Made by a program: the position numbers and the translations under genes | Shown: positions 39,964-63,334 of the stretch, piece by piece | Layout: every line of letters begins with the position of its first letter | Position numbering within the stretch: the first letter of the stretch is position 1 | The notes under the pieces: generated by a model | What the model saw: the letters and a program-made list of their open reading frames with translations, nothing else | The model's database searches: none | Told to the model about the DNA's origin: nothing | Assembly (NCBI GenBank): GCA_004431415.1 | Contig: QPMI01000515.1 | Location: forward strand, 223,195-287,194 | Length of the DNA stretch: 64,000 nt | DNA from: Cyanophora paradoxa CCMP329 | Taxonomy: Eukaryota; Plantae; Glaucophyta | Reading direction: 5' to 3'

Positions 39964-39993
39964 AAGCGGGGAAATTTTCGGACGGGGAGAAAA

Positions 39994-41850: not shown

Positions 41851-41909
41851 ATAGTATTGCGTCATTCCATTGTACATACTTGTAAAAATTGGCCGACTAT
41901 TTTTTACTT

Positions 41910-42289: not shown

Positions 42290-42390
42290 TGATCCTGGAG
42301 AAAGTCTGGACCCAGACCCTGAGAGAAACGCTTCCAAAGCACCAAGCACCAAGCACCAAGCACCAAGGTCCGAGCACCAAGGTCCAAGGT
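42290..42390 (+). repeat. Copy 3 of the ~100-bp heptamer-array repeat
   Basis: TGATCCTGGAGAAA...GAAACGCTTCCAAA(GCACCAA)x4 GGTCC. Confidence 0.92.
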
Positions 42391-42423
42391 CCCCGGTCGA
42401 ACATTTTCTGAACCTAGGGCAAA

Positions 42424-42783
42424 ATGGCCCTGCTCAAGTGCACCGACTCCCGCGACGTGCCCTACAACGTCCTGGTCAACTCGGACGTACCCCGGAGTGC
42501 GATGGAGTTTCCCTGGCGACTGGACAGGGGCAGGGTGACCAAGACCTTCGGGAGGCGCAAGCACTACCTCTCCCAGCTCATCCTCGGGAAGCCGCCACGT
42601 GGACTGTACGTGGAGCACATCAACGGTAACCCGCTGGACTACAGGAGGGAGAACCTGCGCTGGGTATCGATGTCGGAGATCCAGAAGAAGAAGAGGGAGG
42701 GTACGAGCCTGCAGGAGAAGAGCGAGGAGATTGCGGAGATGATGGAGGCGGCGCAGGCGCTGGTGCAGCTCAGCCGCTCTTGA
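42424..42783 (+). CDS. HNH-family (HNH_3/I-HmuI-like) protein with a degenerate active site
   Basis: LSQLILGKPPRGLYVEHINGNPLDYRRENLRWVSMSEI versus the family consensus HR.I.G....VDHINGN.LDNR..NLR.VT..EN. Confidence 0.85.
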   Translation: MALLKCTDSRDVPYNVLVNSDVPRSAMEFPWRLDRGRVTKTFGRRKHYLSQLILGKPPRGLYVEHINGNPLDYRRENLRWVSMSEIQKKKREGTSLQEKSEEIAEMMEAAQALVQLSRS

Positions 42784-42880
42784 TCCTGGAGAAATCCCGG
42801 GCCGAGTCCAGAGGGAAACGCTTCCAAAGCACCAAGCACCAAACACCAAGCACCAAGCACCAAGCACCAAGCACCAAGGT
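42781..42880 (+). repeat. Copy 4 of the ~100-bp heptamer-array repeat
   Basis: TGATCCTGGAGAAA...GAAACGCTTCCAAA(RCACCAA)x7 GGT. It fills the gap between two convergent stop codons exactly. Confidence 0.92.
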
Positions 42881-43639
42881 CTACCCCTTGACGTAGATCT
42901 TAGAGTCCATTTCGCGGTTCGTGATAGCGGCTAGGAAGGAAGTGGCGCCATCGGAAGAGGCAGTGGTCAGGTCGGCGCAGGCAGAGACCAGCTCCGCCAT
43001 CAGGGTAGACCCCACCACGAGCCCGGATGTGGGCATGCCAGCGATGTTGTTGAAGAGCTTGAACGTGAATTTATTGAAGGCGAGACGCGGCCAGATCTGG
43101 GTACGGGGATTTTTGGCATCGAAAACGGCGGGGGCTACCGTGGTCGTGGCATTGGCCATCATTTCCTTTGCCGTCATCTTCCAGAGGTTGTACATTTCCG
43201 AGGGCACGGCGCGCGTCGATCCCGTGCTGGAGCCGTCCACGTTGAGCTGGGAGCCGGCGTTGAGCTGCAGGTGCAGGCTAGTATCCGGGGTGAACTTGAG
43301 CTCGAGCACGCGCACCGAGGGCCGATCCGGGGACGAGGGCTCTATCTTTTTGAGCAGGCCCGAGAGCCAGAGGGCCTCCGCCTCCTCGGCGTTGACGGTG
43401 TTGCTCGCGTTTCCGTCGATGTCAAAGTACACGTAGACGGAGCAGGAGACGGGGCTCTCGAAATCGTTGGACGTGACTCGCAGCATGACCGGATTCTGCA
43501 GCTTCACGGTCATGTTATTCGCGTAGGTGCCGTCCCAGGTGACGTAATCCGTCCCCGCGTTCGCAGCCGTACCCGAGATGCCCTGCCAATCGGGCGTCGG
43601 GAATCCGGAGGCCATGAGGGTGGTGTTGGTCGCGGGCAT
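42881..43639 (-). CDS. Hypothetical beta-rich protein, paralogue of 43673-44353
   Basis: Shared motifs QNPV, E.P...S....FD, SGL.K...P, R.LE.KFT, PRL.F..F.F, G.TL.AELV. Confidence 0.8.
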   Translation of the reverse strand: MPATNTTLMASGFPTPDWQGISGTAANAGTDYVTWDGTYANNMTVKLQNPVMLRVTSNDFESPVSCSVYVYFDIDGNASNTVNAEEAEALWLSGLLKKIEPSSPDRPSVRVLELKFTPDTSLHLQLNAGSQLNVDGSSTGSTRAVPSEMYNLWKMTAKEMMANATTTVAPAVFDAKNPRTQIWPRLAFNKFTFKLFNNIAGMPTSGLVVGSTLMAELVSACADLTTASSDGATSFLAAITNREMDSKIYVKG

Positions 43640-43672
43640 TTTGGGAGGGAATGAGAAAGATTACCCGTACAC

Positions 43673-44353
43673 CTATTCCACCAACCATCCCATTGTGAAG
43701 ATGGACATATCGCCGCCTACCTCTGCGACACGAGCCACGGGCTGCACGTGGCGGGAGCCCGTACCGAAGCTGTAGTTGTACGAGCACTCGACGAGCTCGG
43801 CGCAGAGGGTGTTGCCTGTGACGAAATGGGGATGATCAGCTGCGTAGGAGAGGGGGTAGATCTGGAATTGGAAGAAAGTGAAGGGGAGACGGGGAAGCGA
43901 GCTCGCGCGCGGATTCCCGTCCGTGTACAGTAAGCCCAGTCTAGAGGGACTGGGATTCAGCTTTTCGAAGAGTGCACTCCCCTTGAGGTTACCAAGGTGG
44001 TAATAGGCCCCCGTGCCCGGGAGCGCTGCATCTGTGTACTGCCGAGCCGTGGGGTACGACTCCGTGAACTTGATCTCAAGACAGCGTAAGGGCGCGGCTG
44101 TCGACGTGGCGGGGGCCACCCTCTTAACAAGGCCGGACTCGTGCAGCAGCTCGATGGTCTCGGCCGTGACCTGGCCCGGGTCGAAGAAGAGCTGGTAGGA
44201 GTAGTTCTTTGGCGTCTCGTACGCGTTCTGCACGGCCTGAATCACGACGGGATTTTGAACGAAGACATCGACGTAGCTGCCCGAGGAGATTCTAGCGAAA
44301 TCGTTGGCGTTGGAGCCGACGTCGAGGGTGCTGTTGTAGACGGAGCTCGTCAT
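43673..44353 (-). CDS. Hypothetical beta-rich protein, paralogue of 42881-43639
   Basis: Uninterrupted 226-aa ORF with the shared motifs listed for its neighbour. Confidence 0.8.
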   Translation of the reverse strand: MTSSVYNSTLDVGSNANDFARISSGSYVDVFVQNPVVIQAVQNAYETPKNYSYQLFFDPGQVTAETIELLHESGLVKRVAPATSTAAPLRCLEIKFTESYPTARQYTDAALPGTGAYYHLGNLKGSALFEKLNPSPSRLGLLYTDGNPRASSLPRLPFTFFQFQIYPLSYAADHPHFVTGNTLCAELVECSYNYSFGTGSRHVQPVARVAEVGGDMSIFTMGWLVE

Positions 44354-44391
44354 TTCCCCAGGGGCAGATAATTTTTCGGACTCCCAGTTAA

Positions 44392-45054
44392 ATGCGGAGG
44401 GTGAAGCGCATCCTGATGGTGAGGCGCAAGGCTCCGAGGGTGGTCACACCGGCAGCGCCCGCGAATCTCACCGCCACAGCACCAAATGATGAGCAGCAGC
44501 CCGTGAGCCTCAACTGGACGGGGGTTTATGGGGCGACGGGGTACAAGATCTACCGGGACGGGATCTACCTTGACGCCTCTGTAGCCAACTCCTACAGTGA
44601 TGCGACCACGGTTTGGGGTACGGGGTACGAATTCCAGGTCTCCGCGACCAACTCTGCAGGGGAGGGACTGAAGAGCATAGTGACGTACGTCACCACGGAC
44701 CCGGCAGCACCCACGGGGCTCACGGCCTCTGCACCAGCTGCTGGCGTCGCTCAGCCAGTTGTTCTTGTGTGGTCTCCGCCTGCAACTGGCATTACAGTAT
44801 CATACAACGTGTACCGTGGTGGTGCCCTGCTTGCCTCCAACGTTACGAGCCCCTTTTCAGATACAACAACCTACTTCGATACGTATACCTACATCGTCAA
44901 GGGGGTCAATCAGATTGGAGAGGAAGGGCCACCTTCCGGCAGCGCGAATGCGACGCCCGTGGGCATCTTCCTTCTGGACAGCTCAGCCATTTCCACAGCC
45001 ACAAAGAACGCCCTTGTCGCTGCGTACTCTACACGGAGGTTGCGTAACACATAG
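44392..45054 (+). pseudogene. Fibronectin type III x2 fibre-like gene, apparently 3'-truncated
   Basis: Two FN3 units (PAAPANLTA..LNW..GATGYKIYRDG..YEFQVSATNSAGEG; PAAPTGLTA..LVW..YNVYRGG..YTYIVKGVN). It ends AAYSTRRLRNT, with the stop lying inside the hairpin arm. Confidence 0.75.
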
Positions 45055-45121
45055 GGATACCCCTGATCCAAGCCCTCCGGCCTTCGGCCTACAGGCTTGG
45101 ATCAGGGGTATCCCTATGTGT
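45047..45121. other. Perfect 28-bp inverted repeat (19-nt spacer) at the block A/B junction
   Basis: ACACATAGGGATACCCCTGATCCAAGCC (45047-45074) pairs with GGCTTGGATCAGGGGTATCCCTATGTGT (45094-45121). Confidence 0.95.
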
Positions 45122-45243
45122 GCGCGTTTCAGGTACTAGGGTAGTAAGCATTTATTTCAGGTCTTAGGGTATTAATCATGTCTTTTTGGCACCAGTATGT
45201 TGGCCGCCTCTGGGGTATTAGAAGCTTGGATTCGGCACCAATT

Positions 45244-45336
45244 AGGCAGGAGAGGCAGGAGGGTTATTTGTAAACTTTCCTAAGGAATCCCCTCTTGTGT
45301 GGGATTTTACATATAACCCTCCTGCCTCTCCTGCCT
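45244..45336 (-). terminator. 31-bp-stem hairpin just 3' of the AdoMetDC gene, candidate 3'-end signal
   Basis: AGGCAGGAGAGGCAGGAGGGTTATTTGTAAA pairs with 45306-45336 (1 mismatch), about 24 nt after the stop. The function is inferred. Confidence 0.55.
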
Positions 45337-45359
45337 CTCTTGCCTCTCCTGCCCCTCTC

Positions 45360-45758
45360 TTAAACCTCAAATCTCCTCTTCTCATGGTGTAATCTCTTTT
45401 TAATTACTGCCCCAAATCCAACAGCATATTTGTTTATCTCCTCCTCCAGCTCAAAAGCAATTAAACTTGTATTCCTTTCTGCCTGTTTTCCACAGCTGAA
45501 TATATCTATTGCTAACATGCCTTGATCACTGTAGCAATGAGCAGAGCAATGGCTTTCATCTAATAATAATACTTGGGCAAATCCAGGGGGTGATTTGGTG
45601 CCATCAAAAATCTCAGCATGTTTGTGGACAACCTGTATTCCATATTTCTTGATGATGTCTTCACTGACATTCATGAGCCATTTAGAGAGCTCCACATGGT
45701 CGCTGATTGGTTGGCTGAATTGGAAATCAAGCATCACATGGTAACCTTTGGCAAGCAT
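45360..45758 (-). CDS. speD: S-adenosylmethionine decarboxylase, prokaryotic-type class 1 proenzyme
   Basis: GYHVMLDF, GFAQVLLLDESHCSAHCY (E|S autocleavage site), G.LAIDIFSCG. The ORF is intact. Confidence 0.9.
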   Translation of the reverse strand: MLAKGYHVMLDFQFSQPISDHVELSKWLMNVSEDIIKKYGIQVVHKHAEIFDGTKSPPGFAQVLLLDESHCSAHCYSDQGMLAIDIFSCGKQAERNTSLIAFELEEEINKYAVGFGAVIKKRLHHEKRRFEV

Positions 45759-45803
45759 TTTGATTACCAATAGAATAGAAAAAACAATACGATTGCTGGA
45801 GAT

Positions 45804-46649
45804 TTAAGGCAAAGGATCACTTCCTCCAATGGGATTGTATAAATTTGTGGTTAGATATTGACCAAATCTATTTCCTCTGGCAATTTCATCATTCCTTTCA
45901 GCATACATAATCACTGTGTAAGCCCCTTGCTGGGTAGCTCTTATAATATATTGGTCATCTTGTGTGTCAAGAAGTGGCAGTGAATGGAAAGCAAGTCCGA
46001 AATTATCTACTGGGACTACTTGGACAGTAATTCGGGGTCTTGCTCCATCTGTTCTTCTACATAATGCGTAAATATCAGCAGGCAACGTCTCAGTATATCT
46101 ATAGTGATTTCCCAAAGGCTCTATAACATCAATGACAGCAGTCTGAAGGTTGATAATGATTGTGTTGATTTTGATAATGTAAGGCTCATTCATTCCCGGG
46201 ACATATGTCCTGATTCTTGTATTCACATCATCTGGATTGGGTTGATCATTTACTAATAAAGGCGCTCCAATAATTCCACCAACCCTTAAACCATCTCCAA
46301 TATAGGCACCTCCTGACCTACATTTAATTGCTCCCCTTCTTGCTTCGTAGGCAAAATTGGTTACCTTGTTATCATCATTGTAACTATCAGGATCCCCATG
46401 AAATGCGTTGAAATTCGCATTTGTTACAAGAAGTTTAGTAGTTTTAACGACCCCATTATTTTTGTCACATCTTAACTCTTTTAGTCTTAGCATGTGAGTG
46501 TCACCAAAAGTATTCAGAGTTGGGGCTATCTCTGTGGATTCGAGACCATCAATATTATCAATAATAGCATGCTGTAAGACGTGGTTAGCTGGAGCAGCTA
46601 ATGATAGTTGCGCTGTTAAAATGCGCTCTGGTGGTGCTGGTGCTGCCAT
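45804..46649 (-). CDS. Putative virion fibre/spike-associated protein, paralogue of 46669-47512
   Basis: Shares R.KELR.DKN.GVVKTT.LLVTNANF and SGGA.IG.G.RV.G..G with its neighbour. The C-terminal LP...TVQ...AERND resembles domains at the ends of phage and giant-virus fibres. Confidence 0.7.
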   Translation of the reverse strand: MAAPAPPERILTAQLSLAAPANHVLQHAIIDNIDGLESTEIAPTLNTFGDTHMLRLKELRCDKNNGVVKTTKLLVTNANFNAFHGDPDSYNDDNKVTNFAYEARRGAIKCRSGGAYIGDGLRVGGIIGAPLLVNDQPNPDDVNTRIRTYVPGMNEPYIIKINTIIINLQTAVIDVIEPLGNHYRYTETLPADIYALCRRTDGARPRITVQVVPVDNFGLAFHSLPLLDTQDDQYIIRATQQGAYTVIMYAERNDEIARGNRFGQYLTTNLYNPIGGSDPLP

Positions 46650-46668
46650 TTAATATACTGAAACATAA

Positions 46669-47512
46669 TTACGGAATGGGATCATTCGGAAATGGTTCAT
46701 TGTAGAAATTCGAGACCTGCGAATCAGGATTTATACAGTTGGCAACAGCCCATGCTGCTTCATCATTACGATATCCAAAAATTAAAATATCATAACCCCT
46801 ACCTCTGATGCCCAAAAATCGAAACTGTTTGGTTGTGTGGCAGGATTTCTTGTGATCCATCCACGCCCACCATGGCCTACTGCTTGAACAAAGAAAGTAT
46901 AACCTTCTAATCCTCCATTCTGAGAGCGACACATAGAATACATTGCCTTTGGTAGAAGCTGATTAGCCAATTTCCATGGTCCGGCAATACCTTGGGGTTG
47001 AGTGGCATTTTGCGTATTTACATTAGCTCTAATGATACCAAAAGCATACGGGGAATCCCGCATGGAAGAAACATGCGAATTCTTTGGGGATTATCAGCAT
47101 GTTCAGGTAAAGTGTCCGGAAAATCATTAAAGGCAGCAGAAGAGCCAAGCATTCCCGATACTCTACAGCCACCACCAATTATTGCTCCTCCTGATCTTAT
47201 AACAGCAGCAGCCCTTGTATTGTCAAATTCAAATGCTTTGATATCTACACCATACGCATCAGGTTGTCCATTTGCTGATTGAAAATTCGCATTTGTTACA
47301 AGAAGTTGAGTTGTTTTCACCACTCCCGAATTTTTATCAGCTCTCAGTTCTTTTACACGAATCATACTATTCTTGTCAAAAGCATTACCTGAATTTGCCC
47401 GTTCTGTTGATTCCATTCCACGAACTTCATCAGACACTTCATGTTGTCTAAAATGAATTGCTGGACTCCCCAATGCGTAAACTGGTAATTGGACTCGATT
47501 ATATTCGCCCAT
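46669..47512 (-). pseudogene. Frameshifted paralogue of 45804-46649
   Basis: Homology to the neighbour continues across three track ORFs (47018-47512, 46782-47063, 46669-46932). Confidence 0.75.
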
Positions 47513-47551
47513 TACTTCTTCTATTAAGAAGGATAGAAAAATAAAGCTTCA

Positions 47552-50500
47552 TCACGGAATTCCATATGCTGTCCAGTGAATTGTGAAGGTATATGTCGTA
47601 TTTGCTGTAGCAGTCGCATCAGTTAGCAAGGTAACATGAACTGTGGACGAGGAAGAACTTGAATTCGATAATCCAAATTTATAGCCAAGCGCTTGGGTTG
47701 TCACAGGGGTTCCTTCCATTACTAAACTAATGACAGGTGGTTTCGTGTTGAATGCTGGGTTCCAATTTAAAATATAAGTGGCTTCTCCACGGCTATTGGC
47801 GTTGAGGGGTCCTATACTCATCTGGAAAGTCCCAGATAGAAATCGTTGCCTGATTTCATTCCATGTCGGGATTTTACTTAGACTATTTGTAGTTCCAGTG
47901 GCCACCTCATAGAAAGACCTTGCGTAAACATTGGTGTTCACACTGAGCTTGTCTACCAAAAGATTTGCTGAGAGCTGAGTGTATGTTTCGGGATAAGTGT
48001 ATGGAAAGTCAAGCCCAAATTTGAGCTTAAAGTAATATCTCATGAAACTCTTTTCAGTTGGAGATAAAGCCCGATTAAAAATTACAACTTCGGCTATCTC
48101 TCCTACATAGGAAGTGAATGAGAGTTCCTTTATTTTTATGGTCGGCGTGTTTGACCACAGGAAGCTTCCAGTAATTGAGGGAGATACATCTGCGCCATTC
48201 AACCCCATAGTTAGTGTTGTAGGGGTTAATTGAAAGTCGAACAACCCCCAAGAATTCAAGAAGCTTGTTGTTGAGACTTGTGTTAATGTGGAAGTGATAA
48301 TACCAAGGGAATTTCCATTAACTGCTCCCAGTGTGATATATCTCCCGTATGTAGGGTCACTTGTGTCATCATTGGTAACTACAAAATGTGATTGGTTACC
48401 TGTGGCAGTGTGCTTTCTCACTGAAAATACAGTCATGCCACTGGCAAAAATGTTTGATAATGCTGTGGTGTACTGATGCCGATATCCAGAAGAACTACTT
48501 GTGCTGACCATGTATTTATTTCCATTCAATGCTGTCCCACTGCTTATTGAGTTCTTGGATAAAGTGAACCCAGGGCTCATGTTTGGTAAGGCAAGTGGGA
48601 GCCCTTCTGCTCTGTTGACCATTGTTTCTAACAACGAGCCATTGACATCAGTTGAATTTGGGTACCAGTGGAACACACAATTGGATGTGAAAAGTGGATT
48701 AGTATATGAAAGGAGCTGGTCAATTGGTGGCGATGTAGAAATTGGATAGAACTTGATGGACTGCTCACCATTTATGATTGAAGGAGTGTAAAGGTTGCTT
48801 GAAACTACAAGGTTTGATGTTATTGTACCTCCCGTTCGGGGCAGATAGCTGCTGAGCCAGTCCCTTGTAACATTTGAAGTAACAAGTTGTGGATTAATTT
48901 TTTCAGCTATCAATGTTTGAACGACATTTGAAGTGGTGTAAGGTTGAAGCCAGTTTTGAACAATGTTTGATGTGGGGATATTTGGCAAGGCTACATTGCT
49001 ATTCACAGTCAGCTTATTAAGTATAAGATTGGGGTGGACACCTGTAGGAACTCATTTGAGGAGTAGGCTGGGCTGATTTGGGGAATTGGGTTGCTCAGAC
49101 CATACTTTTGTGATAGATAGTAGCGGATAAAGCCCTTCTCATCAGCTGATAGAGCCCGATTGTAAATGATTATTTCTGCCATTTGTCCTTGGAAGCTTTC
49201 TATCCCAATCTTTTGGATTGTGAGATTTGCCACTTCACTTAAATTGTAGTTGCCAGATAATGTGGGGGATAAATCAACACTATTGATGCCTACTGTGGTT
49301 ACGGTTGAAGTGACATGATAGTCAAACAAAGTCCAATTGTTGTAAAAGCTTGTGGCTGTGGATGCTGTGGAAGTTGCTTGATACACTCCATTTGTTTGAT
49401 AACTCGTTATTCCAATAGATGTTTCTCCTGTGGTTCCGAATCTTATATATCTACTTGATGTAGGGTCACTGTAAATGGTTAGATGAGCTGAAGGACTGGC
49501 AGAGGTTGAATAGTTCCTTCTCACAGAGAACATTGTCATCCCATTGCTGAATGGGTTTGCTATGTAGGGACTTGGTTGCGCCAAATAGGTTGTTACCCTG
49601 TAACCCCAAATAGTTTATTCCCATTGATTAAAGAGGCACTCAGCACGAAGGCCCCAGTTGACACTTTAAGCCAAGAAGGCAAAGCATTGGGTTGCCCAGA
49701 TGCCCTATTGGTAAGTTCTGGTATTGCTGTGCCTGATGGCTCATTTAAAGGATACCAGTGGAATACACAGTTTGGTGTAGACAGTGGATTTGTGTATGCT
49801 GAAAGGCGTTCCAGGGGAGGTATCAAGTTTTGGATTAGAACCAAGTCTATGGATTGGCTACCACTTCTTATGTTATTTGTGTAAAGGCTGCCCGAAACAG
49901 AAAGATTGGATGTGATAGTCCTCCTGATTTGGGCAAATAGTCACTCAACCAGCTCTGAACTATATTTGAGGATGTGAGTGGAGATATTTGGGTATTGACT
50001 GTAGCCGTATCAGCCTTGGGAGCTAACCAGCCCTGAACTGTGTTGGAAGAGGTCAGCAGGGCTACTTGGGAATTAACAAAGGCAGTCTCAGCCTTTGGGG
50101 CTAACCAAGCTTGAACTGTGTTGGAGGATGTCAGCAGGGCTATTTGGGAATTTACAGCTGCTGTATCAGCCTTGGGGATTAACCAGCCCTGAACTGTGTT
50201 GGAAGACGTCAGCAGGGCTATTTGGGAATTTACGGTTTCTGTATCAGCCTTGGGGATTAACCAGCCCTGAACTGTATTGGAAGATGTCAGCAGGGCTATT
50301 CGGGAATTTACGGTTTCTGTATCAGCCTTGGGGATTAACCAGCCCTGAACTGTATTGGAAGATGTCAGCAGGGCTATTCGGGAATTTACGGTTTCTGTAT
50401 CAGCCTTGGGAGCTAACCACTCTTGAACTAAATTGGAAGAAGTCAACGGGGCTATCCATTCCTGAACCACATTGGAAGCAGTCAATGGGGCTATCCACTC

Positions 50501-53500
50501 TTGAGCTACATTAGAAGAAGTCAACGGGGCTATCCATTCCTGTACCACATTAGATGAGGTGAGTGGGGCTATCCATTCCTGAACTACATTGGAAGCAGTC
50601 AGTGGAGCTACCCATTCGTGAACTACATTGGAAGTGGTTAAAGGTTCTATATTGGTATTGATACTGTCTATGCTTTCTTGTATCTGTGTAATCTGGGCAT
50701 TGATGGCAGTTATTTCTGCCTCTTGAAGACTTGAGCTTGTTTGGAAATCTTTGATAATAAAACCACCTCCTGGTGCTGGTGCTGTATATTGGAGGTTGTT
50801 AGCTATAAGACTTCCTGTTACTCGAAGGCTGTTTGTTTGGAGAAGAAGTTTGTTAGGGTCACTGGCGAAAGGATTGTCCAATGGCTCAGGATAGCCGTAT
50901 TTTTGGAGGAGATAACTTCGTATGTTGTCCTTCACGATTTCTGTTGTTGGTTTAATAATCACTATTAGCTCTGCTAAATCTTGTTTGGAGGTTGAAGAGC
51001 CAATACGACTTTCAGTAACAAGGTTATTGGGGAACATGTTTGTAACATTTTCAACACTTCTATTGCTACCATTGATCCCAAATGTAACAGTGGAAGGAGA
51101 GACTGTTACTTCGTAGAGTGTCCATGTCGTCATTTCGGAGTATGTAATTTCTGCTTTTGCGTTACTTGGTGAAGTGCTTTCACCTAATCCTGCTGCTCCA
51201 ACCCCATTAGAAACCTGAATATAACAAGTCGCACCATTGTTCCATTTATTGATGCTCCAATTTGTGGTTCCATAACTCAAAGATAAAACGTTCTCTACAT
51301 TTGGAGGTGCTGTATCTGTGAATTTCGCGACGAAAAACACAGTTAAATGTTGCTGTGAAGTTTGGCTCATGAAAAGTTCACACTCAGCCCCCCACGTATT
51401 ATAGGCTGAAAAGTTGAAGTTAATTGTAGGATACGAATTAAAATAAGGTTTGTTGTTAGGACCTCCATTATTCTTAATTTGTGTCGAGTTCCCAGCAACA
51501 TTACCAAACCCAAGAAGAAAATTCGGTGTCTCAGGGTTATTATCAAACCAAACGTCTCCTGCTCCGTTTCCAAGTCCACTCACTATCGTTCCATCTTTCA
51601 TATTGTCCCTTGCTCTGACCCAAACGAAAACATTAAGAACTGAAAGGACATTAAACGTCGAAACATCCAAATAATCCAATTTGAAAGTGTTCTCATATAT
51701 TTTGAGTTTGCTGTCAGTGTTTCCTTGATTGCTCACGTTAAGATTTCCTGTGATTGTTCCACCTGTTAATGGTAAGTAGTTATCTAACAACGCTTCTGAA
51801 TCTGCTATCCAACCCCTCACAACATTTGAAGTGGTGTATTCATTTAACCATCCTCTTACAACATTCGAGGTTGTGCGATCTGTCAATAATGCTACTACAC
51901 CATTGGTGGTTGCTAAGTTCATCCCTGTTACTTGTAGTTCCTGAGTCTTGATGAGTAGTTTATTATCATCTCTTGGTATTGGGTTTGAAGAGTCTTCTAC
52001 AAATCCGTAGAACTGATGAAGATACCACCGTAGATTATATAATTCAGCAGCTGTTAAGGCTCTTGTGAAACAATAGAATTCGCACAGGTCGAATTTCGAG
52101 TATTGACTTCCCAAATATACATACTTTACATCATTTCGGGGCAGATGAGAACCATTTGTAATCGAAAAGGTCTGTCTCTCTTTCGCATTAACACCCACTT
52201 TTACGGATGTGCTTGTGATTGTGATGTCATAGATTGTCCAAGAATCTACTTCGTCAATTGTGAGTGGAACCCTGAAAGTAGATTGGTCTAATTTACTGAT
52301 GTTCAAAACGAAACCATCACCCCATTGACCTTTGGAAATACTCCAAATTTGCCCATTACTACCAAGTGTAGAAGACCCATCAAACTGTAAAATAGGTTCA
52401 AGCGGTTCAGCATTTCTTAACTTAATCACAAATGCGACAGTTATTCCTCCACTGAAATCGATGGTTTCATAGCCTGCTGAATTTGTAGAAGTGAAGGAAT
52501 AACGGAAAGTAGAGAAGCTATTGGTGTCTGCTACATCATAGTAGGGTTTGTTATTAGGACCTCCTGAGTTTCTGAATACTACACTTCCTGACTGTATCAG
52601 TTTTTGAATAACATTAGCATTTGCTTTATTAACAAGCTCATAGACCAGTACATTATTTTCCCAAGCATCATCCAAACTCGCATTAAATCTTAGAAGGCAA
52701 TGAGACAAACCCCCAACATCGAAATTTAAGAAGTTTAAAGGGGCTCTTGAAATCTCATTGTTCCCTATAACAATCTTATCCTTTACCTCCAGTTCTCTAT
52801 TGACTGTAAGATCACCTGTAATGGTGCCACCTGTCAATGGTAAATATTTAGCAAGTTCAGCATCAAGCTCAGTCTCTGTCACATAGGGTATTAATGCTGC
52901 TGCCAGTGTTGTGGCATATTCAGTTTCTGTTACATAATCATTGAGTATAGTAGTTAATTCGGTTCCATCTATGTAATTCTTATTTTCTAAATAATCCTCT
53001 GTGACCACTCGTGATATATTTTCGTTGTGAATGTTTTTTGCTGCTGCTCTCTGATTTATTTCTAAAACACCTTGCTTATCAACATCATTATAGTTCGTTT
53101 TCTTCCACCCTATCTCACATTGCTTGTAATCGTCTCGATCTCCAACTAAATCATCAGGTAAGAGCCGTTCTCGGCTAAATATTAGCTTTGGTCTTGATCC
53201 ATCAAAAGCGCTAACATCAGTCACATTAATCTGAAGAGTCGCATCTTTGTCTACATAATTAATTGGATTGGCTGGAAGAGATGGTATAGGTGGTAATGTT
53301 GCTGTCATTGGGATGTCGTCAGGGTAGTAACTTGTTAAATAGATACCTGGTTTGGTGTCTTTTATTTCAACACCTCCACCAGCTGCCACTAAATTAACTC
53401 TTGTAGGTGGTCTAATATAGAGTTCGCCTTCCATTGTGGTTCCAGCATTAATTCCGTGGCGATTGACATAATATGTATCTAATAGTAATCGTTCTTCTGT

Positions 53501-54946
53501 GTCTATATTTTTATACAGACTCACACCATGTAGCCCATCATTCACAGCATTACCTGCTGATGCGAAAGTAGGTTGCTGGTCGATTTCATCCCAATCGTGT
53601 CTGTGGTCTTCTGGTGGGAACAATTCTGGTACATCAATTTCGTCCCAAGTGTGTCTATGGTCTGCTGGTGGAAATTCTTCTGGTATTCCATCGATTTCTC
53701 CCCAATCATGCCTATGATCCACAGGTGGAAATCTATCAGGTTTATTCTCGATTTCGTCCCAATCATGGCCATGGGGATCAGGTGGATATGTTTGTGGTTT
53801 ATTTCGAATGTCCTCCCAATCCACTATGAAATCGAATAGATCAGGTGCGAAACCATCAGGTACAAGCTGCTCATCAAAAGGCTCGTAGCGATCATAAGTT
53901 ACAAGATTTGGGTCGAAACCATCTGGTAAGACATTATCCTCTTCAAATCGCCTATCTTCAAGAGGTATAACATTTACATCTGGTGATAAAAGCTCCTCAG
54001 CTGGTTGTTTGTAATCTGTAAATACTGGTTTGTTTCTGACTTTTTCCCAGCTAACTATGTGCTGCCCAAAGGCTACATTTTCCTCTGCTGTGTATTCCCT
54101 CCCTGGTTGCTTCTTTGGTGTAAGGTCAGGTGGATCCCACGGAAGCGGAAAGGGGACAGGAACAGGACCGTAATGCTCAAAGATTTCCCTTATAGTTTTC
54201 TCACTGACAAGCTTCTCACCATTGGCATACACATTGCTTCCATGGATATTTCGCCACTGCCTCGTCCTGATTCCAAGGTCTTTTGTGTTTGTGACCAAAG
54301 GTAAAAGGTGCCTATCCATTTCGACAAGATCAGGATGTAAATGGATTGCTACTGGTTGAGTGGGGCTGCTGTTGATGGTAATTGATGGCTTTTTCTGGTG
54401 GACATCATTTGGAGTAAAAAACCCAAACGGCTCATTCCTCGCAAAGTCATATGTAATATCCTTGGGGTATACATCATTAGTTGAACAGACTTGATTTGTG
54501 TTCTGGAAATGGCCCACTTGTAATACTTGGGGAACCTCTGTTTTTGTGGTGCTGCCCTCATTATAAATTCTCAAACCTGTGTTCTGTTTGCCCTGCTCAT
54601 CTTGTACATTGAAAATCAAACGGCCACTATCACACCTTGATGGTATGTCTGGATGGGTTCCACTTGGTTTGAGTTTTCTCGGTCTCCTTCTGGTTGCCTT
54701 GATCTCTGCTACTTGATTGGCTTTCACATTGCCCAAACTAAAAGCTATACTGACATCCTCCTTGTCTGGATCGGTCTGATTTAAGGACAGGGCATGCTCC
54801 CTTGATTGAGTCTTTGAAGAACCGTCAGAGCTGTGGTCGATTGATATTGAACCTTTAACTTTTATATTATCAAAGTTCACATGCTTTGTGCTGCTGGAAT
54901 TACCATCTTGAATTGTTTCCAGATTAGGGGGGTAATTAAAGCTCAT
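47552..54946 (-). CDS. Giant fibre protein (~2,460 aa) split by three 1-nt frameshifts
   Basis: FPP.DH.H.W.EI tail-fibre repeats; four YLP.TGGTIT-headed LamG/ConA-like modules ending AE....RAL...E...R.YL..KYG; LTSSN.VQ.W stalk repeats; and an H-type-lectin-like C-terminus (F...PP.I...IHWTAYG). Internal homology restores the frame at ~49920, ~49593 and ~49032. Confidence 0.82.
49960..50640 (-). repeat. Coding tandem repeats (42-bp and 81-bp units) in the fibre stalk
   Basis: 14-aa APLTSSNVVQEWI-type units followed by 27-aa PKADTETVNSRIALLTSSNTVQGWLI-type units that are near-identical at the DNA level. Confidence 0.9.
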
Positions 54947-54989: not shown

Positions 54990-56545
54990 ATGCCTCTCAA
55001 GGTCGTTTTAGCATTGTCAGGAGGCGGAGCAAGGGGCATTATCATTACCAGACTGCTCAAAGAAATCGAAAATCGAACTGGCAGGCAAATCATTGACCTT
55101 GTGGATCTTGTTAGTGGAACTTCCACGGGTGGGATCATTGCCATTGGGTTGAACATCAGGCATCCAGATAGGGCAGGCGAACCCAAACTCACAGCCAGTG
55201 ATTTACATAATATTTACCTCACTCAGCTGCCCTTGATTTTCGCGAATCCTCGAAATATAATCGAAAATGCCCTTTTTAACACCAAGTATGATGTGGCTCC
55301 TTTGGAAAGCGCAATCTATTCTGTTACTGGCGAATCTCTCATTCAAGATTCCTTAAAGGACATTGTGATTACTTCGTTTGATACTCAGTACATGAAACCT
55401 ATATTTATCACAAATGATAACAACTATAACTTTCTGCCCTGTAAAATAGCAGCAAGGGCTACCTCTGCTGCTCCCACCTACTTTTCTCCTGTGAGTATAG
55501 TTGATTTTAATCGAGGGTAACTGCTTGCCTTATTGATGGTGCTATTTCAGGAAACAATAACCCAAGTGTGTGTGGCTATAGCCATGCGAGGAAGATTTAC
55601 AGTGATGATGATGACATTATAGTTATAAGCATCTCTTGTGGTGAGGTAGACCCATATTTAGAGTCTGATTATTTCGGCTATGGTTATGAGACTGTGAACA
55701 GTTGGGGCATTCTCTCATGGATTGCCTCAACAGATGGAAGCCCATTGATTAACATGCTCATGGCAGCAAGTGAGCTGTCAGCTCTTGACAAGATGGAGGA
55801 GTTGCTGCCTTACAACTACGATCAGGATTATGGGAGGTACTATAGGCTATCTGTTCCTCTTCCAAATCACATAGTCAAGTCCCTTGATGATACCTCTAAA
55901 ATCCCCGACATGCTTTCGTTCACTGAGACATACATAGCAGCAAACAACACCATGATTAATAAGCTTTGCGATTTGCTGGTAGCAAACTATGAATTAAAGA
56001 ACCCATCAAAAGCTTATATCTCTTCCACTCTCACCCTGTCACCACCTTTGGATGCTAATTGGTACAAACTTGCTGATGATGCTTTTACTGCCTCCTCCTC
56101 TGTGATAGGTAAAGAGCCCCACATGGCTCGACCTTCATCATTTGGCTGGGAAGCTGGGGCATTTGCTCCAGAGCAGATATGGGAGACCCCCACTGAGTAC
56201 CTTCAAGTTGCTTTCCCATACACTTTTGAACTCTCTTCAGTGGTTGCCTATGGGTCAGGGGACACCAATGCTTTTATAAAGACTTTCAATGTGGCTACAT
56301 CAACTAATGGGATCAACTGGTCTTTTATTCGAGCAGAAGGGCAGAACAAAACATTTGTTTGTGAGAATATAAACAATGCTAATAATTCCGGCGATATAGC
56401 TTTATTAAATGGTTACCCTCTCACCATCAAGGATGCTTTCTACGTAGGGTTCTCTTTGAGAATCAAATATGTTCGCATTTATCCCCTTGTCTATGTGAAT
56501 GCTCCCACAATGAGAGTCGATTTTACAGGTGCGTTTATTCGATAA
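54990..56545 (+). CDS. Patatin-like phospholipase fused to an F5/8 type C (discoidin) domain; 1-nt frameshift at ~55516
   Basis: LSGGGARG, GTSTG, ATSAAPTYF. Adding one G to the GGG run gives VTACLIDGA. The C-terminus has FTASS..W....EYLQV..G...FIKTF..S.NG.NW..YVRIYP...MRVDF.G. Confidence 0.88.
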
Positions 56546-57470
56546 ACTCGAGCTGAAAAGAATTGTCAATTCCATTCATGTCAATGATGTCACCAAAGTA
56601 GTCTTTGAACTCAACTGTTAGTTCTCTCACCACCAGATGTCGGTCATTAATTCGAATAAACTCCCCATGTTCACCATTATAGTAAACATAGCCTCCTATA
56701 TCCTTGCTTAATTGGAGTCTCAGTATGGCGCCTTGGTTTTGTGGCTGTGATTTTGGGACTATATTATGTCTGCTGGCAAAGGGAGCAAGTTCTTTGACAT
56801 GTAAATAAAGGTACTGCTCAGCATTCATATCTGCCATCTTATTGCTGTCATAAACATATCTAAGAGGTGTGGATGAAAGTCTGGATCCCGAAAAGGTAGT
56901 TCCCCACAAGGGGTGATTGAGTGTGATAGGTTTGCCATCATACTTTAGAAAATTCTCAGGGCGATATGGAGATTGAGAGGGCGAATTGTCATCCATAAAT
57001 GAAGACTGGAACTCAGTTGAGCTTAAACCCAATAGCTTACCAATGCGCTTATTGCTTGCTTTTATACGGAAATATCGGTTACTGTAGAACTCCACTTTAT
57101 AGGTGGTTGGATTGTAGAATAATTTGAATTCGAAAGCAACTGTTTTTCCTGCTATAGTTTCCTCATAGAACACATAGTTCAATCCATAGTTGTATGGTTG
57201 GGTGACCCCAAAATGTCCCTGATTGATATAACCGGTTGGCAGGGGGGAAATGTTGTAAGTTACTGTTTCAGTGACAGAACTATCCTGATAGGTGAATTCC
57301 ACTATTAAATGATCTGTTCCCACACTATTGTAAATGCTGTTTGGAATTTCTGCGTAAATAACCCTACACTCTCGAGGTCTCTCTACTGGTGTTGTGAGGG
57401 CAACCCTGTAAGAGTTTTCGGTTTCACCTTGGCTGCGATCCCTGCTATCAACATTGACAAGCCGGTTCAT
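56535..57470 (-). CDS. Minor capsid (penton) protein 1
   Basis: N-terminal VDSRDR..SYRVAL..AEIPNSIYN and C-terminal ELTVEFKDYFGDIIDMNGIDNSFQLEF are typical of PLV/NCLDV pentons. Confidence 0.82.
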   Translation of the reverse strand: MNRLVNVDSRDRSQGETENSYRVALTTPVERPRECRVIYAEIPNSIYNSVGTDHLIVEFTYQDSSVTETVTYNISPLPTGYINQGHFGVTQPYNYGLNYVFYEETIAGKTVAFEFKLFYNPTTYKVEFYSNRYFRIKASNKRIGKLLGLSSTEFQSSFMDDNSPSQSPYRPENFLKYDGKPITLNHPLWGTTFSGSRLSSTPLRYVYDSNKMADMNAEQYLYLHVKELAPFASRHNIVPKSQPQNQGAILRLQLSKDIGGYVYYNGEHGEFIRINDRHLVVRELTVEFKDYFGDIIDMNGIDNSFQLEFIE

Positions 57471-57499
57471 TTTAATATATGAATATAGATAAAAGGAGA

Positions 57500-58510
57500 A
57501 TGCCCGTGGACTACATTGAGGTGAGCTCTTTTAATACAATCTCTGGTGACGGTCCTACTTCAAGCTTTATAGCTCGACTTCCAAACATATATGAGAATGT
57601 GAGGGCTGTCAGGCTGGTCTCGGCCGAATTTTATAATAGTATCCCTATGGTGAGTGGTGAAACGCAACCAGGGGATATTACAATTGATAATTCATTCAGC
57701 ATTTTTTGGAGTGAAGAATTCGATGGTGCTGGCATTGATGGCATTCCAACTACTCGACCAGCGGCCGGCTTTGAACCTTGGAAGCAATTAATAATAAGCC
57801 GCAAAAAACCCATTCAAAGCCACCAGCAATTGGTAAATGTAATTAATGCGAAATTCGATGATAGAGAGCCGGAACCATCTATTCGCTGTAAATGGGATGA
57901 GTCACTAAAACGAATTATATTCCACTCAGAGAAACCTTTCTATCTAGCCTTCTCTGTTGCTGGAAATCCAAACCAGAAAACGATCCAAAAGTTGCTGAGC
58001 GCTGCCCGATTGCTTGGTCTTGATCCCGGAAGATATGGAAATTCCCCAATCCAATCACAGGTTTATAATGCTCTTACTGATGGCATCTTTACTGGTGAAC
58101 GGGTGAATGGTATTATATCTTCATTTGAGCCTGAAAAGACCAGGGACAGTGTTTTATTTGTCAGAGTAAAAGAGTTGGGTGATCTAGTTCAGTGTGGGGA
58201 TGGTCTCCTGACTGGTTACTTCCACAAAATCGTGGTTCCTGACAAGGACTATGGTGAGCATGTGGTTTACAATTCAACAGAATCTCACCCACTTTACAAG
58301 TACTATAACAAAAAAATGGGTTTGTCTACATTCTCTGTGGATATAGTAAATGCTATAAACGAACCAATCGATTTTGAGGGTCAACCTGTCCACCTCACAT
58401 TTGAAATTCGATATGGGGAGGAGCCAGCAGGCGACCCTGTCTATGAATACTTTAAGATGCGGATGTCACAAAGTCATCCAACATATCCAATCATTGCGAG
58501 TTTTGGGTAA
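57500..58510 (+). CDS. Minor capsid (penton)-like protein 2
   Basis: IEVSS..SSFIARLPNIYENVRAVRLVSAEFYNS, LFVRVKEL, LSTFSVDIVNAINEPIDFEGQPVHLTFEI. Confidence 0.75.
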   Translation: MPVDYIEVSSFNTISGDGPTSSFIARLPNIYENVRAVRLVSAEFYNSIPMVSGETQPGDITIDNSFSIFWSEEFDGAGIDGIPTTRPAAGFEPWKQLIISRKKPIQSHQQLVNVINAKFDDREPEPSIRCKWDESLKRIIFHSEKPFYLAFSVAGNPNQKTIQKLLSAARLLGLDPGRYGNSPIQSQVYNALTDGIFTGERVNGIISSFEPEKTRDSVLFVRVKELGDLVQCGDGLLTGYFHKIVVPDKDYGEHVVYNSTESHPLYKYYNKKMGLSTFSVDIVNAINEPIDFEGQPVHLTFEIRYGEEPAGDPVYEYFKMRMSQSHPTYPIIASFG

Positions 58511-58563: not shown

Positions 58564-59928
58564 ATGGATATTACGTCGACCCTCCAGCGCCTTTCGTTGA
58601 AAGAAGCCCTAACAACCCCAGAGGAGGCCAAGGCCTTCTTTCTGGATAACTCCCTAATGCTTGGTCTTGAATCCAAGTCGAAGCCCGTTCTTGTTGTTGT
58701 GAACCCGAGCAATACTTTTGAAAATAGTGTTGGAAATCGCATTTCATTCAAACTCCCTCGCTACAATTTCTGTGGCAAACTCGAACTTGCCTTCGACCTT
58801 CCAGCTATCACTTTTGGTGATGCTGATCTTGTTCGGAATGGGTACACTCGCCCAGTTGGTGCTTTGGTTCAGCGACTTGAAATTACCTATGGGTCATACA
58901 CCTACCATATCCCTTCTGATTTCCTTGCTCATTTCCCTCTTGTCTATTATAGTGAGGATCAGCTTGCCAAAAAGAAGCGATCAATGGCATGCTTCACGGC
59001 ATCCCCGCCCATGGAACCAACCGACTTGGTGGCTCATTCTTTGTTGAAATTCCTGTGCCTTGGCTAAACCACTACCTACCTCTTGGTGCTCTGTCTGGTG
59101 AAATGGTAGTAACTGTTTGGTTCAAGGATGTAGGGAAGGGTTATGTTGAGACTTCTTATGGTGGTCGTACTCTTCCTAAGGCTGGGGACACAGCCATTGA
59201 TGGGACAAGGATGATGGGCTTGGCGTCGCACCTGCTGAATCTGTGCTGGCACATGTTGGCCAAAACATCACCACTTTCAATCTTGGTGCGCCAAACGTTG
59301 AAATTAAAATTACTTCTCCTCGCCTTTATATGTATGCTGTTAATGTGTCTGATGAGCTTTTCGCTACTGTTATTGAGAAGGTAAAGACAATGGCATGGCT
59401 ATCCCTGCTCTGGATATTGGATTTGTGGATGTCAGTGATTTGAAAGCCAAGGGTCTTGCCCACCCAATCGAGTTAACTCTCCCAAATATCAGGTCTCGTT
59501 TATGCTCTGCTTGTTTCAGTTCGTGATAACGCTAATGTTGACAAAGCTAATGGTTCCCACAGTGTACTTAAGACCTACTCCAACTCCAAAGATATTACTT
59601 TCACTGTGGAAATTAATGGTCAACGTCTCTATGCCACTGAGCCCATTCCACTGCTCAAGGGTGCTGAGCTGATTGCTGATGTCTTCAAATGCTCTAATAT
59701 GGATAAGGTTGCTGATCGCTATGTTCTTTCAGGCTTCCGTTCTGTCTTGATGGTGAGAAGGCAATTCGCAATGTTGCCCAGTCTGGCTATGTTGACCTGA
59801 CCAATTCTTCATCTTCATTCCTCACTCTCTACATGCCCACTGACAAGGTTATTGATGTCAATGTTCGCGCTCTCATGCACAGCTTTATCATAGTGGACAA
59901 GGACGGCTTAAGGCGAATCAATCTATAA
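58564..59928 (+). CDS. Double-jelly-roll major capsid protein, several frameshifts
   Basis: RISFKLPR, LELAFDLPAI, LVQRLEITYG, VEIPVPWLNHYLPLGAL..VVTVWF, VEINGQRL, and C-terminal VNVRALMHSFIIVDKDG. About 455 codons, lying between the penton and the ATPase. Confidence 0.82.
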
Positions 59929-59980: not shown

Positions 59981-60710
59981 ATGGGCGACTTGGACGAATT
60001 TAATGCTGGTGAGATGATAAATCCCCCTTTCCGCGTTTTGGCAATTGGCAAATCTGCTACTGGTAAATCAGAGGCTGTCAAGTACTGGCTCAAAACAGCT
60101 TCATGATGCCAAAAAGATTGATGTCGTTTTGGTGGTGAGTGGAACAAGCTTTAATCATTTCTGGGATAAAGTGGCCACATTACAATTGGGGAAATGGGAC
60201 GCCCCCTACATTGCTAAATTGCTGGATGAAAGGCAAGAGAAAATAGAAAAGGGGAACCTGTAAACCAATTATGTGTTGTTTTGGACGACCTTATTGACAA
60301 CGAAATAGTAGATTTAACCCGAGATAAATAATCGGAAGTCTTTACAGTCGTGGTAGACATTCGAAAATATCTATTATCTGTATCACACAAAAGCTGAGGA
60401 AAGTCTCATCAACAATTCGTGTCAACTCAGATTATGCTATGTTCCTAAGCGCTGCCAATAGAAAGGAGCTTGAAGCCATTGAGGAAGAATATAATATAAT
60501 GCGGACAAAGATGTTTTCTATAAAATGTTTGAAGAGTACGTTCATTCCTATCAGTTTCTAATTTGGTCATCCGCCGATTATTCTGTGAAATATTTCGTAG
60601 ATAAAGCGGATTTGGTCAAAGATTTCCCATTTCCACGGTTCCACAGGAAGCCAAAGAAGAAAGAAGATGAGCTTAAACCACCAGAGAAAGAAGAGGGCGC
60701 AAAGAAGTGA
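59981..60710 (+). CDS. A32/FtsK-HerA-type DNA packaging ATPase, several frameshifts
   Basis: Walker A GKSATGKS, Walker B CVVLDD, and the A32 motif SRGRHSKISIICITQ...IRVNSDY. These motifs are not shown in the ORF track. Confidence 0.92.
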
Positions 60711-62072: not shown

Positions 62073-62077
62073 ACACA

Positions 62078-62314: not shown

Positions 62315-62510
62315 AATAATCTACTTTTAGGCAGCATAAAAATGCGAAAGGGGCGGCTCTGCGTAGAGCTTGATGAGAGCTTCACAGGAAAAAAAAGAGC
62401 GCTCAAAACGGCCAATCTGGTGCCGAGATATTCGCGTTTGAAGTTCCTTAAGTGGCTCTAATTGAAAGTTTTAGAAACATTCTTATAGAGCTCTATAAGG
62501 AAATAGCTGC

Positions 62511-62687
62511 GCAATCTCAGCGTTGCGCGGCCATACAAGGAGCAATCTCAGGCTTGCGCAGCCACACACTGAGCAATCTCCGGCTTGCGCGGCCATACAA
62601 GGAGCAATCTCAGCGTTGCGCGGCCATACAAGGAGCAATCTCAGGCTTGCGCAGCCACACACTGAGCAATCTCAGGCTTGCGCAGCC
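62511..62687. repeat. Six 31-bp tandem units with dyad GCAA-N8-TTGC
   Basis: GCAATCTC starts at 62511, 62542, 62573, 62604, 62635 and 62666. Confidence 0.95.
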
Positions 62688-62694
62688 CGCGTGT

Positions 62695-62848
62695 ATATGT
62701 ATATGATATATATGAAAAAAAAACAAGTTTTGGTAAAAACCACAGCGCCGTGATCGCCATGACGCGGCGAGTCCGAAAAGCTATGATATATATATATGTC
62801 ATGTGACATCATAATATATCATATACATATATCATTATGGTATATACA
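62695..62848 (+). repeat. ~150-bp direct repeat, copy 1 (copy 2 at 63184-63334)
   Basis: Near-identical ACAAGTTTTGGTAAAAAC...GTGATCGCCATGACGCGGCGAGTCC...ATGGTATATACA. Confidence 0.95.
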
Positions 62849-62939
62849 AGTCGCTCAAATTTAAGTCTTATAAGGTCTTATAAGAGTTGTCTTATAGAAT
62901 TCTTTTCTAAAATCTTATATGGTCTTATAAGATTTAATG

Positions 62940-63173
62940 TGCGTACTTTAGCTGGTACGCAAGCCACTGTGCGTACCGTAGCAGTACGCAGCCCACTGTG
63001 CGTACCGTAGCGCAGTACGCAAGCCACTGTGCGTACCGTAGCGCAGTACGCAGCCACTGTGCGTACCGTAGCGCAGTACGCAGGCCACTGTGCGTACCGT
63101 AGCGCAGTACGCAAGGCCCTGTGCGTACCGTAGCGCAGTACGCAGGCCCCTTGCGTACCGTGGCTCAGTACGC
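62940..63173. repeat. Eight ~30-31-bp tandem units with dyad TGCGTAC-N7-9-GTACGCA
   Basis: GCGTAC starts at 62941, 62971, 63000, 63031, 63061, 63092, 63123 and 63153. Confidence 0.95.
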
Positions 63174-63183
63174 GCGAACGTAC

Positions 63184-63334
63184 ATATGTATATGATATAT
63201 ATAAAAAAACAAGTTTTGGTAAAAACTACAGCGCCGTGATCGCCATGACGCGGCGAGTCCGGAAAGCTATGTTATATATATATGTCATGTGACATCATAA
63301 TATATCATATACATATATCATTATGGTATATACA
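63184..63334 (+). repeat. ~150-bp direct repeat, copy 2
   Basis: Matches 62695-62848 with a few differences. Confidence 0.95.

What the first reader, a model, noticed from the sequence alone, without database searches (positions are those of the whole stretch)
45360..45758. SAM decarboxylase in a small endogenous virus: possible anti-methylation function
Seen: an intact AdoMetDC with ESH and SCG motifs, no spermidine synthase in the window, and only one CpG in 45361-45780. Known: the enzyme consumes SAM, decarboxylated SAM inhibits methyltransferases, phage T3 destroys SAM to evade restriction-modification, and some protists silence viral insertions with 5mC. Some homologues instead decarboxylate Arg or Orn. 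Inference: counter-silencing by SAM depletion, or polyamine supply for genome packaging. I know of such genes in phages and giant viruses but not in PLVs.
Basis: partly seen in the sequence, partly recalled or inferred. Interest (0 to 1): 0.8.

Follow-up and report, generated by a model that had tools for sequence, protein, structure and literature searches.

The report
Polinton-like virus arginine decarboxylase, not SAM-eater
A small DNA virus integrated in an algal-type genome carries an intact, optional enzyme gene that looks like SAM decarboxylase but sits in a family branch whose tested members act on arginine, so it likely makes the polyamine precursor agmatine rather than sabotaging the host's DNA methylation.

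Summary
The ORF is real: 132 aa, class 1b SpeD fold, Ser69/His74/Cys89 intact, 1 CpG, no spermidine synthase in the window. The interpretation mostly fails. Its cellular relatives are Poseidoniales/MGII archaeal proteins, with a deoxyhypusine-synthase-like speY directly downstream in 78 of 80 genome loci and spermidine synthase in 0 of 166 loci. Assayed members of that clade decarboxylate arginine, not AdoMet (PMC10407285). The protein groups with them (99/100), next to giant-virus homologs. It lacks the HxWP proline and all four ornithine-decarboxylase signatures. An AU test did not reject grouping with true AdoMetDCs (p=0.30), and no assay exists. The gene is not new to PLVs: Table S6 of PMC12220804 counts AdoMet_dc 66 times in 156 glaucophyte elements and 72 times in three cryptophyte species, without discussion. 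Here it fills a swappable slot near the left hairpin end: some copies lack it, and diverged paralogs exist. CpG depletion covers the whole element (O/E 0.46). Best reading: an accessory pyruvoyl arginine decarboxylase (SpeDA) supplying agmatine/polyamines (0.7). SAM-depletion counter-silencing is about 0.06. The scan earlier noted the same enzyme class in a prokaryotic speDA-speY operon, not in a virus.

The parts
45360..45758 (-). Class 1b SpeD-fold pyruvoyl decarboxylase, SpeDA (arginine decarboxylase) clade; Ser69 predicted cleavage/pyruvoyl site, His74, Cys89
45198..45801 (.). Variable cassette slot that holds the gene; contigs in 3 of 4 runs laid join 45197 to 45802 with 32 other letters between, i.e. 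sister copies without the gene
   Evidence: tables 5, 5c
45055..45113 (.). Palindromic hairpin at the GC/CpG boundary, likely the element's left terminus
   Evidence: -27.3 kcal/mol, z -8.2
45804..47512 (-). Two paralogous ORFs of unknown function (48% identical over 140 aa)
   Evidence: no Pfam hit for either, no PHROG hit for the first
47552..54946 (-). Laminin-G-like fibre/adhesin ORFs, including a 1692-aa repeat protein
   Evidence: (PF13385, below cut-off)
54990..56545 (+). Patatin phospholipase followed by an F5/8 discoidin domain, in two overlapping frames in this copy
   Evidence: the fusion is described for PLVs in PMC12220804 section 13
56535..58510 (.). Two divergently transcribed ORFs of 311 and 343 aa, possibly minor capsid proteins (label from recall; no database hit)
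58564..59928 (+). Major capsid protein with an NCLDV-like N-terminus, in several frames in this copy
   Evidence: Atlas 0.97 to a cluster with PF16903 on 70% of members; recognition score below 2300, so weak
59984..60710 (+). A32-like packaging ATPase, in several frames in this copy
   Evidence: PF04665 E 5.6e-4, below cut-off; Walker A-like motif seen; table 4
62480..63300 (.). Two arrays of about 31-bp tandem repeats, each followed by a shared AT-rich block; role not examined
   Evidence: (D8, D13)

Best explanation
The gene is an intact, optional cargo gene of a multicopy endogenous polinton-like virus, and it likely encodes a pyruvoyl-dependent L-arginine decarboxylase (SpeDA) that would make agmatine, not decarboxylated SAM. 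Shown: the fold, the catalytic Ser/His/Cys, the clade, the presence/absence slot and the diverged paralogs. Inferred: the proenzyme self-cleaves at Glu68-Ser69 to form the pyruvoyl group. When the virus is active it converts host arginine to agmatine, a PLP-free and SAM-free entry into polyamine synthesis. Agmatine would then serve directly as a DNA-binding cation or be turned into putrescine/spermidine by host enzymes, supporting replication, translation or packaging. The gene was likely exchanged with giant viruses of similar hosts; the direction is not established.
For:: speY directly downstream in 78 of 80 genome loci and 73 of 80 metagenome loci; these were the best 80 of 353 and of 542 confirmed hits. 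The downstream gene is PF01916 in 3 of 3 tested. Agmatinase family is present in 5 of 5 such genomes and spermidine synthase in 0 of 5 (incomplete MAGs). SpeE hits 0 of 166 loci. Fusions of this clade to DHS or an arginase-family domain exist (P0181, P0182, P0185, P0220, P0249). PMC10407285 (read: abstract, results, discussion, start of methods, supplement) assayed Poseidoniales, MGII/III, Gimesia, Solirubrobacter, Nannochloropsis and Tribonema proteins of one clade as arginine decarboxylases; those tested did not complement speD. Tree of 44 rows: query in a 99/100 clade with the speY-linked MGII proteins, 97/93 with giant-virus homologs L001/L002, and separated from 7 phage SpeDs by a 99/99 branch. 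BLAST 100-111 bits to the 8 MGII rows against 36-37 bits to three validated phage AdoMetDCs. Ser replaces Pro at +8, as in 77 of 80 MGII loci (Ala in 3), whereas 6 of 7 phage SpeDs have Pro. Variants among near-identical copies: 5 synonymous, 2 non-synonymous, no indels listed.
Against: No assay. The assayed sequences themselves were not in my alignment; membership rests on taxon and gene context. The AU test does not reject holding the query with the phage AdoMetDCs (p=0.296; long branches, root unstable), and the bootstrap had not fully settled. The validated AdoMetDC of phage phiYS40 also lacks the +8 Pro, and I could not see the figure that marks the diagnostic Pro. No agmatinase or speY in the window or in loci L001, L002, L005, so the fate of agmatine depends on unexamined host genes. 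The eukaryotic-virus SpeD homologs assayed so far were true AdoMetDCs (PMC9992855, passages); I did not have their sequences. This copy's capsid and ATPase genes are frameshifted, so it may be defective or carry assembly errors.
Confidence: 0.7

Rival explanations
1. A true or dual-specificity AdoMetDC that raises dcSAM for the host's spermidine synthase, an ordinary polyamine-boosting viral gene.
For: Same fold and catalytic residues. Algal giant viruses encode validated class 1b AdoMetDCs (PMC9992855). AU test p=0.296. The Pro criterion has an exception.
Against: Below the TIGR03330 cut-off. Nested among speY-linked, speE-less relatives.
Confidence: 0.1
2. Counter-silencing: the enzyme drains SAM or builds up dcSAM so that host DNMTs cannot methylate the provirus.
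For: The likely host methylates CpG and viral genes (host identity unchecked). The element is CpG-depleted. dcSAM is described as a methylation inhibitor in human cells (PMC2933235, start of abstract only). PLVs do carry candidate counter-methylation genes, TET-like demethylases (bioRxiv 2026.06.19.733378, passages).
Against: Needs AdoMet as substrate, which the clade evidence disfavours. The closest relatives sit in archaea and in giant-virus contigs with no link to silencing. CpG depletion covers the whole element, not just this gene, and fits a history of being methylated or general avoidance equally well. A methylated, silent gene could not start its own rescue, and SAM drain would act cell-wide (inference).
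Confidence: 0.06
3. A pyruvoyl ornithine decarboxylase (SpeDC-like) making putrescine directly, which would need no partner gene.
For: A stand-alone gene is easier to explain with ODC, as PMC10407285 argues. One phage homolog uses both Arg and Orn.
Against: 0 of 4 diagnostic residues: Leu, Glu, Cys and Ala stand where SpeDC has Gln, Thr, Phe and Tyr (positions read by me from the SpeDC domains in Fig. S5).
Confidence: 0.08
4. A neutral passenger, or an enzyme for another substrate, with no benefit to the virus.
For: Some copies lack it. No confirmed RNA evidence. Some clade members are fused to NNMT-type or SET domains, which hints at other chemistry.
Against: Intact frame with mostly synonymous variants, and diverged paralogs that keep the core motif. 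Counted 138 times in PLVs of four host groups and present, on a separate branch, in another small virus, L082.
Confidence: 0.06

Closest known systems
SpeDA arginine decarboxylases of the Poseidoniales/MGII-Gimesia-Nannochloropsis-Tribonema clade (Li et al. 2023, PMC10407285)
   Same: Fold, catalytic triad, SPPGF...DESH..AHCY[S/A] core, loss of the +8 Pro, tree position beside MGII proteins (45-56% identity in local alignments)
   Different: Carried by a small eukaryotic DNA virus, with no speY or agmatinase beside it in the window; activity untested
Virus-encoded SpeD homologs (Li et al. 2023, PMC9992855): phage AdoMetDC/ADC/ODC, and algal giant-virus AdoMetDCs of HaV and YSLPV2
   Same: Small PLP-independent polyamine enzyme as viral cargo
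   Different: In the passages read, pyruvoyl ADC/ODC activity was shown only for phage proteins; the eukaryotic-virus ones were true AdoMetDCs, some paired with spermidine synthase
AdoMet_dc-bearing PLVs of glaucophytes and cryptophytes (PMC12220804 Table S6)
   Same: Same Pfam domain in endogenous PLVs; laminin-G fibres and patatin-discoidin genes as here
   Different: Only counted there, under the AdoMet_dc label; main-text searches for adomet, adenosyl, decarboxylase, polyamine and spermid gave 0
Chlorovirus PBCV-1 arginine-to-homospermidine pathway
   Same: An algal virus entering polyamine synthesis through arginine to agmatine
   Different: PLP-dependent enzyme of another fold, with its own AIH, NCPAH and HSS
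T3 SAM lyase/hydrolase (recalled, no call) and PLV TET-like demethylases
   Same: Only the proposed aim of evading methylation-based defence
   Different: Unrelated folds; no evidence here that SAM is the substrate

Membership tests
Class 1b SpeD fold (PF02675) | Profile score over cut-off, and fold | tested here: met
   45.5 bits against 25; best Foldseek hits 2iii, 1vr7, 1tmi, 1tlu
Class 1b SpeD fold (PF02675) | Processing Ser, His and Cys (T. maritima S63/H68/C83) | tested here: met
   S69, H74, C89 align; invariant in 32 rows
Bona fide AdoMetDC | TIGR03330 equivalog cut-off | tested here: not met
   50 against 75.65 bits
Bona fide AdoMetDC | Conserved diagnostic Pro | tested here: inconclusive
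   Ser at +8 (HxWP site); but which Pro the paper marks is inferred (figure not seen), and validated phiYS40 lacks it too
Bona fide AdoMetDC | Co-occurs with spermidine synthase | tested here: not met
   0 hits in the window, 0 of 166 loci, 0 of 5 MAGs; rest of the element and host genome not available
Bona fide AdoMetDC | Complements delta-speD or decarboxylates AdoMet | not testable with these tools
   needs an assay
SpeDC ornithine decarboxylase | Gln, Thr, Phe, Tyr diagnostic residues | tested here: not met
   L, E, C, A
SpeDA arginine decarboxylase | Falls in the clade with speY-linked MGII/Poseidoniales proteins | tested here: met
   99/100, SH-aLRT 94 in the 150-row tree; the AU test of the alternative is not significant; assayed sequences not included
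SpeDA arginine decarboxylase | Agmatine-using partner (speY, speB, aguA/B) in the same genome | tested here: inconclusive
   speY and speB absent from the window; aguA/B not searched; host genome not held
SpeDA arginine decarboxylase | Activity on L-arginine only | not testable with these tools
   needs an assay
Polinton-like virus | Jelly-roll major capsid and A32 packaging ATPase | tested here: met
   Atlas 0.97 to Capsid_N clusters (weak recognition); PF04665 E 5.6e-4, below cut-off; both in pieces in this copy
Polinton-like virus | Replication gene, integrase, both termini, 15-40 kb size | not testable with these tools
   Only a left hairpin and 19 kb lie in the window; no genome held

The most novel reading that the evidence does not exclude
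Glaucophyte and cryptophyte PLVs carry a metabolic weapon rather than a housekeeping aid: either the enzyme has kept or regained AdoMet activity and lowers host methylation of proviruses, or its arginine drain and agmatine output starve a co-infecting giant virus of polyamines. It would be the first metabolite-level counter-silencing or antiviral function in a small eukaryotic DNA virus.
Probability: 0.1. Interest if true: 0.8.

Novelty: new member of a known kind. Interest (0 to 1): 0.38.

Why it matters
PLVs are rarely credited with metabolic genes, yet this one is counted 66 times in 156 glaucophyte elements and in three cryptophyte species, under a probably wrong label and without comment. 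If it is an arginine decarboxylase, it would extend pyruvoyl ADCs, known from archaea, bacteria, two stramenopiles and phages, to eukaryotic viruses, together with its giant-virus sister clade. It is a 132-aa enzyme with an established E. coli assay, and natural gene-plus and gene-minus sister elements sit in one host, so it is cheap to test. The anti-methylation reading would matter much more but has little support.

Tried and rejected
No whole genome is held, so host DNMT, agmatinase and polyamine genes and the element's right half were not examined. Single-protein scans of viral contigs found no relative of the decarboxylase or of the capsid N-terminus, and only L082 itself for its own decarboxylase. 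No RNA holder was listed. Run X20 is RNA only by guess; it holds a contig of this gene at depth 4 and of a paralog at depth 153, which I do not count as expression. Contig depths are not copy numbers and were used only qualitatively. The codon-shuffle CpG test expected 13.1 against 1 observed, but 11 of 12 element genes fall below expectation, so its p-values overstate and I set it aside. The first careful tree did not finish; the quick tree left out L083 and L084; one search failed on a pattern error and was redone. The spermidine synthase search over viral handles covered 1 of 5 (no match, 6% complete). The T. maritima substrate-complex paper was not held, so AdoMet-binding residues were not used. 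Literature searches: adenosylmethionine decarboxylase + polinton-like gave 0 papers; polinton + virophage + decarboxylase gave 5 listed, 2 opened for passages, neither relevant. Supplements of the two bioRxiv preprints were not available, the PNAS supplement was not opened, and only one part of Table S6 (the 19 host-group rows and 2 reference rows) was read; these may bear on novelty.

Full report
Observation. The window holds an intact 132-aa ORF at 45360-45758 on the minus strand. It matches PF02675 at 45.5 bits but reaches only 50 of the 75.65 bits required for the AdoMetDC equivalog TIGR03330. The AlphaFold model is confident (pLDDT 95.9) and its best structural matches are the solved class 1b AdoMetDCs. 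Ser69, His74 and Cys89 correspond to the processing and catalytic residues of T. maritima (PMC10407285). There is one CpG in the stated stretch. The whole region 45060-62300 is depleted (O/E 0.46) against 1.13 in the flanking host DNA, and the gene is its poorest spot, modestly beyond chance. E. coli SpeE finds nothing in the window.

Setting. GC falls from 57-60% to 42% at about 45.1 kb, at a palindrome that folds with z -8.2, likely the left end of the element. To the right lie two paralogous unknown ORFs, laminin-G-like fibre genes, patatin plus discoidin, two possible minor capsid genes, a major capsid gene with an NCLDV-like N-terminus (weak) and an A32-like ATPase (below cut-off). Capsid and ATPase are in several frames in this copy, at places where deep contigs carry indels relative to it, so this copy is decayed or has assembly errors. 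Replication and integration genes are not in the window. The host part has intron-split glucan synthase, SRAP and selenoprotein S genes. Earlier unchecked notes on the same genome name the glaucophyte Cyanophora paradoxa; I could not verify this, but the gene set fits published glaucophyte PLVs.

The gene is optional and diversified. Nineteen of 24 listed runs, all of one organism label, hold at least half of the words of 44000-49000. In 3 of the 4 runs laid, a contig joins 45197 to 45802 with 32 other letters, so sister copies lack the cassette. Near-identical copies differ at 7 listed sites in the ORF, 5 synonymous and 2 not, with no indels. A deeper contig at about 85% identity covers the catalytic core; 7 of its 12 differences were listed, giving 3 synonymous and 2 changed codons, including a Ser AGT-to-TCC switch that keeps the residue at the +8 site. 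Its loose end reads SPPGFALV by hand translation, so it is a paralog; other loose ends suggest more. Its genomic context is not shown.

What the relatives are. The closest is a 66% metagenomic protein on an 800-base contig with no context. Next come proteins of 45-61% local identity; three loci of this group (L001, L002, L005) look like giant-virus contigs by their genes, with an NCLDV capsid confirmed in L001. Among genomes, the best 80 of 353 hits are almost all titled Poseidoniales, Marine Group II or unplaced euryarchaeotes. In 78 of those 80, and 73 of 80 metagenome loci, a deoxyhypusine-synthase-like gene lies directly downstream or is fused. An agmatinase-family gene is in 19 of 80 genome loci and in 5 of 5 genomes searched; spermidine synthase is in 0 of 166 loci and 0 of 5 genomes. 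This is the speDA-speY-speB arrangement of PMC10407285, where Poseidoniales, MGII/III, Gimesia, Solirubrobacter, Nannochloropsis and Tribonema proteins form one clade and decarboxylate arginine but not ornithine or lysine, and those tested fail to complement speD.

Tree and motifs. In a 44-row tree the query lies in a 99/100 clade with the speY-linked proteins, in a 97/99 subclade with DHS fusions, and 97/93 with giant-virus homologs. Three validated phage AdoMetDCs and four other phage SpeDs lie beyond a 99/99 branch (bootstrap not fully settled). A 150-row quick tree agrees. Against this, an AU test on 25 rows does not reject holding the query with the phage group (p=0.296), because the long outgroup branch can attach almost anywhere. 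At the HxWP site the query has Ser, like 77 of 80 archaeal loci; none of 109 hits and none of 135 scorable of 144 representatives has Pro. Six of 7 phage SpeDs have Pro, but the exception is a validated AdoMetDC. None of the four ornithine-decarboxylase residues is present.

Mechanism. Most likely the proenzyme self-cleaves at Glu68-Ser69 and converts arginine to agmatine when the virus is active, with no need for PLP or SAM. With no partner in view, agmatine would be used as such or passed to host enzymes toward putrescine and spermidine. Chloroviruses use an arginine-agmatine route with a different enzyme. Expression, the host's downstream enzymes and the benefit to the virus are all inferred. 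The SAM-depletion model needs the less likely substrate. Its premise of a methylating host is plausible (PMC12344493, passages), and PLVs have another candidate route, TET-like demethylases; no TET-like hit appeared in the ORFs I scanned.

Novelty. PMC12220804 Table S6 lists PF02675 counts of 66 for Glaucocystophyceae (156 elements), 10 for Cryptomonas borealis (177), 17 for C. pyrenoidifera (57), 45 for Rhodomonas lacustris (706) and 0 in the other 15 of 19 host groups; counts may be genes rather than elements. The main text does not mention it. An 18-kb IMG/VR contig (L082) with primase-helicase, A32 ATPase and a capsid-like gene carries a same-clade gene on another branch, which points to repeated capture. 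I found no paper assigning arginine decarboxylase activity to PLV or giant-virus SpeD homologs (searches; limited library). Verdict: a real feature and a new member of a known enzyme clade, in a context already tabulated but never interpreted. Interest 0.38.

Noticed in passing
window 39871-45054: A separate 57%-GC, CpG-normal virus-like block left of the hairpin: HNH endonuclease, two paralogous ORFs (26% identical), and an FN3 ORF that stops right at the hairpin, as if the PLV inserted into another mobile element.
   Followed up: partly
window 41910-42881: Three arrays of a 7-bp unit (AAGCACC) in inverted orientation around the HNH gene.
   Followed up: no
window 45244-45336: An imperfect inverted repeat (77% over 94 nt) just downstream of the decarboxylase stop, inside the variable slot.
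   Followed up: no
L082 (IMGVR_UViG_3300020048_000801) 5367-5741: A second small PLV-type virus with a same-clade decarboxylase, plus LicD and collagen genes.
   Followed up: partly
L001, L002, L005: Giant-virus-type contigs with the closest placed homologs; no speE, speY or agmatinase in the fetched stretches.
   Followed up: partly
P0182, P0220, P0235, P0170, P0231, P0188: Fusions of this decarboxylase clade with NNMT-type methyltransferase plus DHS, with SET domains, or with PQ-loop domains.
   Followed up: no
P0154: Tandem double-domain member with Lys in place of Glu before the processing Ser in both domains.
   Followed up: no
L081, L086: Two phage-like contigs carry members of this SpeDA clade, one grouping with MGII proteins and one with planctomycete proteins.
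   Followed up: no
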